A program made the translations under genes and the position numbers. A stretch of 64,000 nt of DNA, taken from positions 832,001 to 896,000 of the forward strand of contig CM000151.3 in the NCBI GenBank assembly GCA_000004695.1, read 5' to 3'. Positions 28,066-33,156 of this stretch are shown here, piece by piece. The notes under the pieces were generated by a model. It saw nothing but the letters and a program-made list of their open reading frames with translations. It searched no databases and was not told where the DNA came from. Position 1 is the stretch's first letter. Every line of letters starts with the position of its first letter. This DNA comes from Dictyostelium discoideum (taxonomy: Eukaryota).

Positions 28066-31000
28066 TTAATTATAGGTATATGTAACTAAATAGTATGGAT
28101 ATGATTGTTGATTATCATAAACGATATAAATATCAGAGCCCAGTGGATTACCTTTTACAGAATCATATCTTACATTTTTATTTGTAGAATCTTTTAGGGG
28201 TGGTAATTTGAGTGAACTGTCTGGCTCTGAGGTAATTGAATCACCAATTAAAACTGTGGCAATAAAGATTTGATTTAATTTTTGTGGAGTTTTATAGCTA
28301 TATCTATGTGAATATGATGCATTATATGCAAAGTAACTACCATTTCCCCACATACAACTCTCTTTAGAAAATCTCCAATCAAAGCAATTTTTAGAATTAT
28401 AAATTGATTCTGGTTGTGTTGCACTGGTACCATGGAATAAATATAATTCACCCTAGAAATATAAATATTTTTTTAGAATTGGAATATTAGTTTATTTTTT
28501 TATATTTATTACACACATACACATACACATACACATACACACACACAAACATAGACACTTACACTTTTACCATTATTATGAGCTTCAATTTTATTTTTTT
28601 TATAATAATAATCTTCATAGGAACTTCTATTTTGAACGAATTCAACTTTATTGATAATTACACCTGGTAATGTTTCCGACATTCTTGTACGAATTTCTAA
28701 CCATTCTTTACCACCTTTTTCAATTTCTACTAAACAACACTCTTTCTTATGATCCCATCTATTTGGATAAATGATTTTATTATTATTTTTAAATTCTAAA
28801 ATTTGAGATTTAATATCTAGAACTTGTTCTTTTAGACCCTCTAAATTAACATTTGATGTTTTTGTATCATAATTAATTTCAACACCATATGATAAACATT
28901 TATCTTTTATAAAACTTAATGAATCAATTGGAATTTGAATATTTATAATATTTTCTGAATATTTATACTTTATAACTAAATCTTCTAATTCCTTTACAAA
29001 TGATCTTATATCATTTATATTACCTTTAACTATAATTTGATATTTATTTTTACTTTTAACAACAACACCATCATCATCATCATCGTCATCATTATTATTA
29101 TTATTTTTATTATTATTATTATTATTATTATTATTATTATTATTATTATTATTATTATTATTATTATTATTATTATTATTTGGAATATTATTATTTGGAT
29201 TATTATTATTTGGATTATTTTTATTATTATTATTATTGGTTTTTGGATTTAATAATTTTAATAGTTGGCCAAAAAAGCCATTTCCGTCATTATTATTATT
29301 ATTATTATTATTTATAGTGGTTGGAGTTGTGTTTTTATTGTTTTTATTGTTATTATTAATATTATTATTTATAATATTCCTTTTAACTAATCTTTTGGTG
29401 TATTGTAATTTATCATTTAATTGATACCACGAAGATGGATTATTATGATCTATAAAGTAAACAGTATAGGTCGAACCATTCTTTTTTTGATTTAGATCAC
29501 CAATGATTGAAACCAATCGAAGACGAGAATTATATGCTTTTTCAATTTGAATTGATTGGTCGTAATCATATGGAATATCTTTACCATCATTTTCTCTCCA
29601 TGTCCATTCATAATTTAAACTCTTTGGTTTAATAGGTTCATAATTTGTATTTAAAATTGATTTATTTGGTTGAGTGGTGGTGTTTTTATTAATGCTGCTA
29701 TTTTTATTGTGAAATAAAGTACCATTATCTGAGAATTTAATCAAACTATTTTCAAATATATTTGCAGTACTTTGATTTAAATCAACAAAATTAACTTCAT
29801 TTAATGTTGTTTCATTTGTTAATAAAAATTCAATTGCACTTTTAATTATAATTGGTACTGCTTCTTTTGGATCATAACCGAAAATACCTGTACTAATTGC
29901 TGGAATTGAAATTGATTGGCAATTTAATGCTGTTGCACTTCTTAAAGAGCTATGAATTGACATATGTAAAATTCTAGCTTTATTTGGATTATCATTTTTT
30001 GGACCAACTGTATTAATTACGAATATATTACCCATTTTAAATTTACTTCCATAAACAGAACAACCTGTACCTATTGGACCGTTTTTTTCATAATATGATT
30101 CACAAAATTCTTTAAATGTAGCGCCGGCAGCTTCTTGAATTGAAAATGCAGCACCACCTAAATTCTTTAATTTTTCATTTGCAGGGTTAACGATTGCATG
30201 CGTTTTTTGTTTTGTTATATCACCTTTTATAATTCTAATAATTTTACCATTTGATAAATTTAATGAAATAATTGTTTCATTTTCAACTTTTAATTCAACA
30301 AGTGTAAAAGTTTCTTTTTGTAATTTACCAACTTTTTTTAAATCAAATAAAATGTCATGTCTAATTTTATCAATTGTAATTGCCCTTGTTTCTATACTAT
30401 TTTCATATGAATATTTTTCTTTTAATAATTCAAGATAAATAATCTTTATATTTTCTGGGTCACCACTAATTTTAACATTTAATTCTTCTTTATTATAATA
30501 ATATCTAATACCAATTTGTTGAGATTTTATTTCTAATGATTCAATTAAATTTTTTAACTATAAAATAATTAAAAGAGTTAATATTTATTTTTGTATATAT
30601 TTTATATATTTATTTATTTTATATATATTGATATATTTACCTTTAAAGATGATAATTTACTTAATTGAATAGTTTTGGTTTCACTTGGAGTTGTTGATAT
30701 CAATGAATCAATATCTGCTGTAACTAATTTAAATTTCTCTATACATGGTACACAAATTATTATTTCTTCACTATTTATTAAAATTGTTGCATTGTATTGT
30801 TTTTCAATTTCTTTAATTTTCATTAAATTTGAAGTGGCAACAATAAGGATTTCTTTTAAATTTGGTGAATTATATTTTTGAAAATGAATTGAATTTTTTG
30901 AAGAAATTATTGATTTTTCAATTTTTTCAACTTGATTTTTATTTCCATAAACTAAAACATTCTTGAAATCAATTTGTGTATCATCACTCTTTGATGGTGA

Positions 31001-33156
31001 GATTTTAATTGAAACTAATTCATCATTATTATTATTACATTGTTCTTGTAATGATTTTAAAATATTTGATAAAACTTTTGATTTTATAAATAGATCATCA
31101 CCAGATAAATCAATTGTTTTTTCATAAAATCCATTTAATGCTTCATCAATAATTTTCTTTATTTGAATATAAACAGTCTCTAATGATTTTATTGAAATTT
31201 TATTTGTACCTATTATTCTAGTTGAATTTGTAAATTTTTGATTAATTAATTTTAAAATTGATTTTTGTTCTAAAAATAGAATTTCAATTTCTTTTTCAAC
31301 TTCATAAACATGTTCAACCTATTTATTATTAATAATTATTAAAATCAACTTTGGTTTTTTTTTTATTTTTTTTATTTTTAGTAATTAAAGCTAATACTTA
31401 CTTTACTTTTATTTAGTAGATTCATTACAATTGCTGAAACAATTTCTAAATTTTCTTTTGAATTTGCTTCCATTTTAATTCCACCATTTTGATAATGCAT
31501 TACATAATCTTTGGTATTTAATGAACTCCAATCATATCTTCCTCTCATTTGTTGCTCATTCATTGGAACAAACTTTTTTAAATTTTTGAAATCTTCAATG
31601 AAATTCTTAACCAAAATGACTTTTGATGATTCACCAGTAATTAAAAAAAATATTTGATTATTATTTTTATTATTTGATTTTTGTTTTTGATTTTGATTAT
31701 TATGTTGTTGTTGCTGATGTTGATTGGTATTATTGTTTTCATCAATTTGAAAATGTGTAAGGTAAGTTTTAATGGCTTTTGAATATTTATAAATTAAATT
31801 TTTATGAGTTTCAAAGAAAAGAGAATTAAATTTTACTCTTTCTCTTCTTAAATTACCAATTTGAAGTAAAATGGATTCTTGTGATTCACTTGATAATTGA
31901 CCTTCAACTTTAAAGGTACCATCTTTTTCAATAATTTTTGATGGTATAATTGATTGTTTCCATTGTCTTAATAAATGAATTTTAATATAAATATGGAATC
32001 TCTTATCAACTATTAAATTATTATTTGAATCAATAAGTTTGGAATTAATAAATTGTTGCTGTTGTTGTTGTTGTTGTTGTTGTTGTTGTTGTTGTTGTTG
32101 TTGTTGTTGTTGTTGTTGTTGTTGTTGTTGTTGTAGTTGTTGTTGTTGTTGTTGTGGTAGTTGTGGTAGTTGTGGTAGTTGTGGTAGTTGTTTTTGTTGT
32201 TGTTGTTGTTGTTGTTGTTGTTGTTGTTGTTGTTGTTGTGGTTGGTGTTTTTGTTGTTGTGGTAGCTGTGGTAGTTGTTTTTGTTTTTGTTGTTGTTGTT
32301 GTTGTTGTTGTTGTTGTTGTTGTTGTTGTTGTTGTTGTTGTTGTTGTTGTTGTTGTTGTTTTGTTAACTCTCTCCAACTGTTGTATTGGGTTTCATTTAA
32401 TTTTTTAATTTCATTCATTAATGGGTTAACGGTTGAGTCATTAGATAAAGTCTTTTCAAAATTTCTTTTGGCATTTAAACATGAGCTTCTATTATCTGAT
32501 ATGATAAATGGGATTAGTTTTAAAATTGGAATTAAAGTTTCTATTTTTTTTTCTTTAATGAAATCATTATTTATTTTTTCAAATTGAGTTTCAAAGAATG
32601 ATTCAATTTCATTTTGTTTTCCACGATTTAATATACATTCTTCAATTTTAAAAGGTTGATTGGTTAGTGGTTCTTTTGAATTACATTTTTCTAATGTTGA
32701 ATATGAATAAGTGTGACCACTACATTGAACAATGTGAGGATTTATTAAAATTATTCCTGTAATATTATCTAATAATGAATCTGGTGCAATATTTGAAAAA
32801 TAACTTTCGAGGGTTTCTTTTACATTATTATTATTATTATCACTATTATCACAAGCTTTCTTATTAATATTTTTATTTTTATTATTATTTTTTTCACTAT
32901 TAATATTTTTTAATTTATTAATATTTTTATTGTTATTATTATTATTATTATTATTATTATTATTATTATTATTATTATTATTATTATTATTATTATTATT
33001 ATTATTATTATTATTATTATTATTATTATTATTAATATTATTATTATTATTATTATTATTAATATTATTATTATTATTATTATTAATATTATTATTATTA
33101 TTATTATTAATATTATTATTATTATTATTATTATTATTATTATTATTATTATTCAT
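28066..33156 (-). CDS. Multidomain mono-ADP-ribosyltransferase (about 1604 aa) with N-terminal polyN, a U-box-like segment, polyQ, a middle region, a macro domain, a WWE domain and a PARP catalytic domain. Exons 31402..33156, 30641..31318, 28563..30557 and 28066..28452.
   Basis: U-box-like: APDSLLDNITGIILINPHIVQCSGHTYSYSTLEKC. Macro: IRIIKGDITKQKTHAIVNPANEKLKNLGGAAFSIQEAAG...VINTVGPKN...ISIPAISTGIFGYDPKEAV. WWE: YEWTWRENDGKDIPYDYDQSIQIEKAY...WYQLNDKL. PARP: GELYLFHGTSAT...GNGSYFAYNASYS...IFIATVLIG...YIVYDNQQSYPYYLVTYTYN*, which is closest to the macro-PARP (PARP14/15) class. All three introns are phase 0 with GTAAGT/GTAAAT donors and TAG acceptors. The last intron contains an (ACACAT)n repeat. 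Confidence 0.7.

What the first reader, a model, noticed from the sequence alone, without database searches (positions are those of the whole stretch)
28066..33156. Single gene combining a U-box-like E3 segment with macro, WWE and PARP catalytic domains
The four-exon ORF joins a U-box-like motif (ILINPHIVQCSGHTYSYSTLEKC...P.T) to a macro domain, a WWE domain and a macro-PARP-class catalytic domain with H-G-T, YFA and YPYYLVTY signatures. This is a mono-ART type, lacking the catalytic Glu context of PARP1. In metazoa the ubiquitin E3 (DTX3L) and the macro-PARP (PARP9/14) are separate proteins that cooperate. A fused U-box plus reader (macro/WWE) plus writer (PARP) architecture in an amoebozoan would be a compact ADP-ribosylation-ubiquitination coupling module. 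Long polyN and polyQ tracts are inserted between domains.
Basis: partly seen in the sequence, partly recalled or inferred. Interest (0 to 1): 0.65.

Follow-up and report, generated by a model that had tools for sequence, protein, structure and literature searches.

The report
Dictyostelium pARTg: U-box macro-PARP gene
The four-exon gene is real and does join a ubiquitin-ligase-type U-box to macro, WWE and mono-ADP-ribosyltransferase domains, but it is the already annotated Dictyostelium discoideum gene pARTg, whose U-box-macro-PARP architecture was published in 2010, 2014 and 2016.

Summary
On the minus strand, 28066-33156 holds a four-exon, 1604-aa ORF. Profile searches find a U-box, a macro domain, a WWE domain, a PARP14-type KH domain and a PARP catalytic domain with an H-Y-I triad, which is the mono-ART type. 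A high-confidence AlphaFold model of the N-terminus superposes on the CHIP, Ufd2 and Prp19 U-boxes. Orthologues in Polysphondylium violaceum and Cavenderia fasciculata, and a Luapelamoeba hula transcript, carry the same N-terminal U-box module joined to macro-WWE-PARP. Alignments run straight across all three exon joins, so exon 1 belongs to this gene.

It is not new. The catalytic-domain sequence and the 5091-bp span match D. discoideum DDB0232928 / DDB_G0271766 (pARTg, chromosome 2, 860066-865156). Citarelli 2010, Perina 2014 and Gunn 2016 already describe its U-box, macro and PARP layout.

Small additions from this work:
- The macrodomain is closest to the hydrolase-type PARP14 macrodomain 1.
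- KH-like domains flank the macro-WWE core.
- The fusion also occurs in a non-dictyostelid amoebozoan.

E3 and ART activities remain untested.

The parts
31402..33156 (-). Exon 1 (residues 1-585): polyN, U-box, helical bundle, polyQ and the first KH-like region, all in one uninterrupted ORF
   Evidence: ORF list. Splice model.
30641..31318 (-). Exon 2 (residues 586-811): KH-like repeat region. Intron 1 is 31319-31401.
   Evidence: A BLASTP HSP with the P. violaceum orthologue spans the join.
28563..30557 (-). Exon 3 (residues 812-1476): KH-like, macro, WWE, polyN/D, KH pair and the start of the ART domain. Intron 2 is 30558-30640.
28066..28452 (-). Exon 4 (residues 1477-1604 plus the stop at 28066-28068): the core of the ART domain. 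Intron 3 is 28453-28562 and contains a (GTATGT)n run.
32584..32787 (-). U-box domain (residues 124-191)
32365..32583 (-). Conserved five-helix bundle packed after the U-box (residues 192-264). It matches no named family.
32053..32364 (-). PolyQ / QLP-repeat linker (residues 265-368)
30276..32052 (-). Middle region (residues 369-905, spanning introns 1 and 2) with repeated beta-alpha units. These are KH-like, but only weakly supported.
   Evidence: Weak Pfam hits to KH_1 (E 0.016) and KH_DEAH11_2nd (E 0.014). hhalign against the C-terminal KH pair gives E 0.001 but probability only 21%. The region is conserved in dictyostelid orthologues.
29847..30191 (-). Macro domain (Pfam residues 934-1048), of the PARP14-MD1 / MacroD type
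   Evidence: Pfam 79.1 bits. PDB search: PARP14 macrodomain 1 scores 62.8 bits against 30.8 for macrodomain 2. MacroD and YmdB hydrolases score E 1e-19 to 1e-21.
29376..29609 (-). WWE domain (about residues 1128-1205)
   Evidence: Pfam PF02825 scores 34.2 bits against a cut-off of 21.1 on the isolated segment. The best weak PDB hit is the DTX1 WWE domain. WWE is also found in the orthologues.
28776..29081 (-). Pair of KH-like domains between WWE and ART (residues 1304-1405). The KH_PARP14_3 hit lies at residues 1370-1399 (28794-28883).
   Evidence: Pfam PF23249 scores 32.4 bits against a cut-off of 28 on the segment. The same region of the orthologues gives KH_PARP14_8, KH_PARP14_3 and KH_DTX3L hits.
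28075..28664 (-). PARP/ART catalytic domain (Pfam residues 1443-1602, interrupted by intron 3). Triad H1483, Y1516, I1584.
   Evidence: Pfam 51 bits. PDB search: PARP12 at E 1e-26, PARP15 at E 5e-26, PARP14 at E 1e-21, with the alignment shown. Residue numbers.

Best explanation
This is the Dictyostelium discoideum gene pARTg (DDB_G0271766, chromosome 2, 860066-865156). It encodes a clade-3, PARP14-like mono-ADP-ribosyltransferase with an N-terminal U-box.

Shown here:
- One 1604-aa protein has this order: polyN, U-box, conserved helical bundle, polyQ, KH-like repeats, one macrodomain, WWE, a KH pair, then an ART domain.
- The ART domain has an H-Y-I triad with no catalytic Glu, so it is expected to transfer single ADP-ribose units from NAD+.
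- The macrodomain is closest to PARP14 macrodomain 1 and to MacroD-type hydrolases. It keeps the N-x6-GG and G-I-F-G motifs.
- The N-terminal 70 residues are a bona fide U-box by profile and by predicted fold.
- The whole layout is conserved in other dictyostelids and in Luapelamoeba.

Inferred, not shown:
- The ART writes mono-ADP-ribose on itself or on targets.
- The macrodomain, and possibly the WWE domain, read that mark, and the macrodomain may also erase it.
- The KH-like domains bind nucleic acid or partner proteins.
- The U-box recruits a charged E2, so that ADP-ribosylated targets or the enzyme itself become ubiquitylated.

If these inferences hold, the protein would be a one-polypeptide analogue of the metazoan PARP14 / PARP9-DTX3L partnership, using a different E3 domain.
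For: Identity:
- Supplementary file 3 of Citarelli et al. 2010 gives DDB0232928 | DDB_G0271766 | pARTg, chromosome 2, 860066-865156.
- That span is 5091 bp, the same as 28066-33156.
- Its residues 1417-1617 are identical to this protein, apart from a 14-aa read-through of intron 3.

Architecture.

Mono-ART class: the best solved relatives are PARP12, PARP15 and PARP14, and the Ile aligns with the PARP12 third triad position. Otto 2005 lists Dd.pARTg among the pARTs with H-Y-I or H-Y-L variant motifs.

Macrodomain: the best match is PARP14 MD1, followed by MacroD and YmdB hydrolases. PARP14 MD1 is an experimentally active hydrolase (PMC10499325).

U-box:
- Pfam scores above its cut-off.
- The orthologue profile hits only U-box proteins at the top of the PDB list.
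- The AF2 model has pLDDT 91 and pTM 0.84.

Conservation:
- P. violaceum (1588 aa) and C. fasciculata (1780 aa) have the same N-terminal module plus macro, WWE and PARP.
- A Luapelamoeba hula transcript (1788 aa) has the same layout, which is transcript-level evidence for the fusion in a relative.
Against: - No enzymatic activity was tested, and none can be tested here.
- The U-box is divergent. Its central helix is about four residues shorter than in CHIP.
- The position equivalent to the CHIP E2-contact residue F237 is Gly134 here. It is Phe or His in orthologues.
- The usual 'PN' before the last helix is 'LN' here.
- A single-sequence search of the U-box region against solved structures found no U-box protein.
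- No RING-DTC domain is present. DTC is the domain that ubiquitylates ADP-ribose in DELTEX ligases. Direct Ub-ADPr chemistry of that kind is therefore not expected.
- There is no RNA-seq for this locus here, so the splice joins rest on homology only.
Confidence: 0.85

Rival explanations
1. The architecture is as described, but the U-box is a degenerate, non-catalytic module. It would serve dimerisation or protein docking together with the helical bundle that follows it. On this reading the protein is simply a PARP14-like mono-ART with no intrinsic E3 activity.
For: - The central helix is shortened.
- Gly sits at the CHIP F237-equivalent E2-contact position, and 'PN' is lost.
- Pfam U-box scores are modest: 27-31 bits here, 17 bits in C. 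fasciculata, and none reported in P. violaceum at E 0.01.
- U-boxes such as those of Prp19 and CHIP are also dimerisation units (PDB titles).
Against: - The U-box core residues and the Pro equivalent to CHIP P269 are invariant from dictyostelids to Luapelamoeba.
- The predicted fold superposes on E2-bound CHIP U-box structures at 1.2-1.6 A.
- The Ile equivalent to CHIP I235 is kept.
Confidence: 0.3
2. The gene model is an artefact. On this reading exon 1, which carries the U-box, belongs to a separate gene from the macro-WWE-PARP exons.
For: The exact 1604-aa sequence is absent from the protein collection.
Against: - Exon 1 is one open frame from the U-box to residue 585.
- Residues 502-585 of exon 1 are part of a single 720-column HSP (residues 502-1204) with the P. 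violaceum orthologue. That HSP crosses the exon 1/2 and 2/3 joins.
- Three orthologues, one of them a Trinity transcript, have the U-box and PARP in one protein.
- dictyBase annotated one gene over exactly this span.
- The failed exact look-up is consistent with the 2010 dictyBase model using a different intron-3 donor, which adds 14 aa.
Confidence: 0.02
3. The ART domain is catalytically dead, as in PARP9 or PARP13. On this reading the protein acts only as an ADP-ribose reader/eraser and scaffold.
For: Some clade-3 PARPs are inactive. No activity data exist for pARTg.
Against: - H and Y of the triad are intact and the third position is Ile, as in the active enzymes PARP10 and PARP12. The inactive PARP9 has Q-Y-T instead.
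- The LFHGT, GSYFA and YPYYL motifs are conserved in all orthologues.
Confidence: 0.08

Closest known systems
Dictyostelium discoideum pARTg (DDB0232928 / DDB_G0271766)
   Same: It is the same gene. The chromosomal span has the same length. The catalytic-domain sequence is identical. The published layout is U-box + macro + PARP (Citarelli 2010; Gunn 2016) with an H-Y-I or H-Y-L variant triad (Otto 2005).
   Different: The 2010 dictyBase protein carries 14 extra residues (VSVYVCVCVCVCVC). It used a GTATGT donor at 28520 instead of the GTAAGT donor at 28562. Homologues have no insertion there. The passages read from the 2010 and 2016 papers list no WWE or KH-like domain for this protein.
Human PARP14 (clade-3 macro-PARP; RRM x3, KH x8, macro x3, WWE, ART)
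   Same: - Mono-ART catalytic domain that lacks the catalytic Glu.
- MD1-type macrodomain.
- WWE domain.
- PARP14-type KH domain hits.
- Among the best solved relatives for both the macro and ART domains.
   Different: - One macrodomain instead of three.
- No RRM in D. discoideum, although the C. fasciculata and Luapelamoeba orthologues have one.
- The WWE domain lies before a KH pair rather than directly before the ART domain.
- An N-terminal U-box plus helical bundle that PARP14 lacks.
PARP9-DTX3L / PARP14 axis (separate E3 and macro-PARPs in vertebrates)
   Same: It combines ADP-ribose writer, reader and eraser domains with a ubiquitin E3-type domain and KH-like domains. In that sense it is a possible functional analogue.
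   Different: - The E3 element here is a U-box, not a RING-DTC. No DTC hit was found in the Pfam scan.
- The elements are fused in cis rather than assembled from separate proteins.
- There is no evidence that it ubiquitylates ADP-ribose.
CHIP / Ufd2 / Prp19 U-box E3 ligases
   Same: Profile homology and predicted fold of the roughly 70-residue U-box.
   Different: - A shorter central helix.
- Gly at the CHIP F237-equivalent position.
- A different context, followed by a family-specific helical bundle and a macro-PARP.

Membership tests
D. discoideum pARTg (DDB_G0271766) | Sequence identity and the same locus span | tested here: met
   Residues 1417-1603 are identical to the published DDB0232928 alignment row. 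Gene span 860066-865156 is 5091 bp, the same as 28066-33156.
U-box (PF04564) | Profile match above the curated cut-off | tested here: met
   27.4 bits on the whole protein and 31.4 bits on the segment, against a cut-off of 21.4. The orthologue profile hits CHIP at E 5e-6.
U-box (PF04564) | RING-like cross-brace fold without the zinc-ligand Cys/His pattern | tested here: met
U-box (PF04564) | E2-contact residues (equivalents of CHIP I235, F237, P269) | tested here: inconclusive
   I132 and P163 are kept. The F237 equivalent is G134. The central helix is about 4 residues shorter.
U-box (PF04564) | E2-dependent ubiquitin ligase activity | not testable with these tools
   This needs a biochemical assay.
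Clade-3 / PARP14-like mono-ADP-ribosyltransferases | PARP catalytic domain with H-Y-(I/L/V) in place of H-Y-E | tested here: met
   PF00644 scores 51 bits. The triad is H1483, Y1516, I1584, aligned to PARP12.
Clade-3 / PARP14-like mono-ADP-ribosyltransferases | [quoted passage not shown] | tested here: met
   One macro domain, 79 bits, with PARP14 MD1 as the best match.
Clade-3 / PARP14-like mono-ADP-ribosyltransferases | WWE domain | tested here: met
   PF02825 scores 34.2 bits against a cut-off of 21.1 on the isolated segment.
Clade-3 / PARP14-like mono-ADP-ribosyltransferases | KH domains of the PARP14 type | tested here: inconclusive
   One hit above the cut-off, and only on the isolated segment (KH_PARP14_3, 32.4 against 28). 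The middle-region repeats give only weak hits.
Clade-3 / PARP14-like mono-ADP-ribosyltransferases | N-terminal RRM domains | tested here: not met
   There is no RRM hit in this protein. The C. fasciculata and Luapelamoeba orthologues do have RRM_1.
MacroD / PARP14-MD1 hydrolase-type macrodomains | Sequence similarity plus the N-x6-GG and G-[IV]-[FY]-G motifs | tested here: met
   NPANEKLKNLGGAA and STGIFGY align with PARP14 MD1 (NASNEDLKHYGGLA, SSGVFGF) and with MacroD.
MacroD / PARP14-MD1 hydrolase-type macrodomains | ADP-ribosyl hydrolase activity | not testable with these tools
   This needs an assay. PARP14 MD1 activity is shown in PMC10499325.
DELTEX (DTX3L) RING-DTC ligases | RING plus DTC domain | tested here: not met
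   No RING or DTC family appears in the Pfam scan at E <= 1. The protein is at most an analogue, not a member.

The most novel reading that the evidence does not exclude
The U-box of pARTg is an active E3 that works in cis with the ART, macro and WWE domains. Mono-ADP-ribosylation written or read by the protein would then direct ubiquitylation. This would make it a single-polypeptide counterpart of the vertebrate PARP14 / PARP9-DTX3L system. The same fusion occurs in Luapelamoeba (named a discosean here from memory; its taxonomy was not looked up). If that placement is right, ADP-ribose-ubiquitin coupling by macro-PARPs would date back at least to the common ancestor of dictyostelids and discosean amoebae, and would be testable in a genetically tractable organism.
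Probability: 0.3. Interest if true: 0.55.

Novelty: already known. Interest (0 to 1): 0.22.

Why it matters
Crosstalk between mono-ADP-ribosylation and ubiquitylation (PARP14, PARP9-DTX3L, ubiquitylated ADP-ribose) is an active field. A natural fusion of a U-box to a macro-PARP in Dictyostelium is a convenient model for asking whether the two chemistries are mechanistically coupled.

The fusion itself has been in the literature since 2010 and is annotated in dictyBase. The scan has therefore rediscovered a known gene rather than found a new system. What is still open is experimental. I found no functional study of pARTg in the searchable library.

Tried and rejected
- An exact look-up of the 1604-aa protein found nothing. 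This is consistent with the 2010 dictyBase model being 14 aa longer.
- Word-index homology searches were nearly empty. The macro-PARP half gave 3 distant hits. The U-box region gave none, either as a single sequence or as a 3-sequence profile. The exhaustive HMMER search on exon 3 was what produced the orthologues.
- A single-sequence phmmer search of the U-box region against the PDB returned no U-box protein. Only the orthologue profile did.
- A single-sequence AlphaFold run of residues 101-265 failed, with pLDDT 45. The 4-sequence alignment gave pLDDT 91.
- The afdb50 fold library was unavailable.
- The WWE domain was not reported in the whole-protein Pfam scan. It needed an isolated segment.
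- An internal-repeat test of the middle region against the C-terminal KH pair by hhalign was weak, with E 0.001 and probability 21%. The KH nature of residues 369-905 stays unproven.
- I considered and rejected three ideas: that exon 1 is a separate gene, that the locus is a pseudogene (the ORF is intact and conserved), and that it is a DELTEX-type ligase (no RING-DTC).
- P0006, a 234-aa protein that is 92% identical, is a short gene model from 'Dictyostelium cf. discoideum'. It is not encoded in this window.
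Full report
**What is there.** The window has about 22% G+C and is rich in polyN and polyQ, which is typical of Dictyostelium. The four exons are 33156-31402, 31318-30641, 30557-28563 and 28452-28066. All have GT..AG introns, all are in phase 0, and they give one 1604-aa ORF with a single terminal stop. The alternative donor five bases upstream in exon 1 breaks the frame.

**Domains.** The Pfam scan of the whole protein gives three domains above their cut-offs:
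- Macro, residues 934-1048, 79 bits.
- PARP, residues 1443-1602, 51 bits.
- U-box, residues 124-191, 27.4 bits against a cut-off of 21.4.

Scanning segments freed from the low-complexity tracts raises the U-box to 31.4 bits. It also reveals a WWE domain (PF02825, 34.2 bits against 21.1) at about residues 1128-1205. A PARP14-type KH domain (PF23249, 32.4 bits against 28) appears at residues 1370-1399. The order is therefore: polyN, U-box, helical bundle, polyQ, a long KH-like region, macro, WWE, polyN/D, a KH pair, then ART.

**Catalytic class.** The closest solved relatives of the ART domain are the mono-ARTs PARP12 (E 1e-26), PARP15 and PARP14. In the alignment, H1483 (LFHGT) and Y1516 (GSYFA) are kept. 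The third triad position is I1584 and aligns with the Ile of PARP12.

**Macrodomain.** The best match is the first macrodomain of PARP14, at 62.8 bits against 30.8 for the second. MacroD and YmdB-type hydrolases follow. The NxxxxxxGG and G-I-F-G motifs are conserved. PARP14 macrodomain 1 is an experimentally shown ADP-ribosylhydrolase (PMC10499325). A reader and eraser role is therefore plausible, but it is inferred.

**The U-box.**
- A single-sequence search of solved structures found no U-box protein, and a single-sequence AlphaFold model was useless, with pLDDT 45.
- The exhaustive HMMER search with exon 3 supplied orthologues that kept the N-terminal module. A profile built from three of them hit only U-box proteins at the top of the PDB list: CHIP at E 5e-6, then UBE4A, UFD2 and PRP19.
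- AlphaFold with a four-sequence alignment gave pLDDT 91 and pTM 0.84.
- They also superpose on the Ufd2, Prp19, E4A and E4B U-boxes and on RING domains.
- A conserved five-helix bundle (residues 192-264) follows. It has no specific structural match.
- The domain is divergent. Its central helix is about four residues shorter than in CHIP, and the equivalent of the CHIP E2-contact residue F237 is Gly134. The equivalents of I235 (I132) and P269 (P163) are kept.
- Homology and fold are therefore established. E3 competence is not.

**One gene or two.**
- The U-box and residues 369-585 lie in the same uninterrupted exon.
- BLASTP against the 1588-aa Polysphondylium violaceum orthologue gives three collinear HSPs: 115-264, 502-1204 and 1317-1604. 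The last two cross all three exon joins with no indel at the joins.
- Cavenderia fasciculata (1780 aa) has a weak U-box, RRM, macro, WWE and PARP.
- A Luapelamoeba hula Trinity transcript (1788 aa) has CAP-Gly, U-box, RRM, macro, WWE and PARP. Both show the same fusion.
The first condition, no U-box profile hit, is not met.

**Identity and prior knowledge.**
- Citarelli et al. [quoted passage not shown] They discuss this under links between ubiquitination and ADP-ribosylation.
- Their supplementary alignment labels the protein DDB_G0271766, gene pARTg, chromosome 2, 860066-865156. That is a 5091-bp span, exactly the length of 28066-33156.
- Its residues 1417-1617 are letter-for-letter those of this ORF, apart from 14 extra residues after GKS.
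- Perina et al. [quoted passage not shown]
- Gunn et al. 2016 draw pARTg with U-box, macro and PARP. Otto et al. 2005 list Dd.pARTg among the pARTs with H-Y-I or H-Y-L variant motifs.
- The finding is therefore a correct rediscovery of an annotated gene with a published architecture.
- I found no functional study of it. Recent PARP14 and DTX3L papers do not mention it.

**What this work adds, modestly.**
- (a) The 2010 dictyBase model read 42 nt of the (GTATGT)n run in intron 3 as coding (VSVYVCVCVCVCVC).
- (b) The macrodomain is MD1-like.
- (c) PARP14-type KH signal sits between the WWE and ART domains here and in the orthologues. The KH nature of residues 369-905 remains weakly supported.
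- (d) The U-box-macro-PARP fusion extends outside Dictyostelia to Luapelamoeba.

**Mechanism and comparison.**
- The best-supported reading is a PARP14-like mono-ART with writer (ART) and reader/eraser (macro, WWE) modules plus a U-box that may recruit an E2.
- It works like the PARP14 / PARP9-DTX3L system only by analogy. It has no RING-DTC domain, so it is not a DELTEX-type enzyme. Ubiquitylation of ADP-ribose itself is not expected from this domain set.
- The main rival is that the U-box is a non-catalytic docking or dimerisation module.

**Verdict.** The novelty is 'already known' and the interest is low. The remaining value lies in untested biochemistry.

Noticed in passing
window 33685-34315 (minus strand, just upstream of the gene): A decayed, chimeric partial copy of pARTg.
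- 34050-34315 matches the promoter, ATG and polyN at 32936-33200 (96%).
- 33756-34240 matches the KH pair and ART start at 28694-29237 (78%, with a 91% core).
- 33685-33766 matches part of exon 4 at 28219-28301 (93%).
The reading frame is broken into 125-, 51- and 107-aa ORFs, so it looks like a pseudogene left by a tandem partial duplication.
   Followed up: partly
window 27744-27828: A second short, degenerate copy (75-80% identity) of the last part of exon 4 (28096-28181). It lies just downstream of the stop codon and contains a 40-aa ORF with 'YSVKGN...SDVY'.
   Followed up: no
window 26931-27548 (+ strand): A ubiquitin-conjugating enzyme (E2) gene lies tail-to-tail with pARTg, about 0.5 kb from its stop. 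Two of its exon pieces were joined for the scan. Pfam UQ_con scores 131 bits. By eye it looks like the Ubc7/UBE2G type, with the acidic loop insertion. It is probably a coincidental neighbour of a U-box gene, but worth noting.
   Followed up: partly
window 28453-28562 (intron 3): The intron starts with a (GTATGT)n / GT-rich run that offers several in-frame alternative donors. The 2010 dictyBase protein used the donor at 28520, which adds VSVYVCVCVCVCVC. Homologues argue for the donor at 28562.
   Followed up: yes
window 36232-40209 (+) and 40358-43432 (-): The neighbouring genes are a lipin / phosphatidate phosphatase homologue (Lipin_N, Lipin_mid, LNS2) and an SMUBP-2/HCS1-type helicase with R3H and zf-AN1 domains. 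Both are ordinary housekeeping genes.
   Followed up: partly
P0018 (Heterostelium album, 1801 aa) and P0001 (939 aa, ENA contig): These are macro-WWE-PARP proteins with KH_PARP14 hits but no U-box. U-box-bearing and U-box-less PARP14-like paralogues therefore coexist in amoebozoan-type genomes.
   Followed up: no
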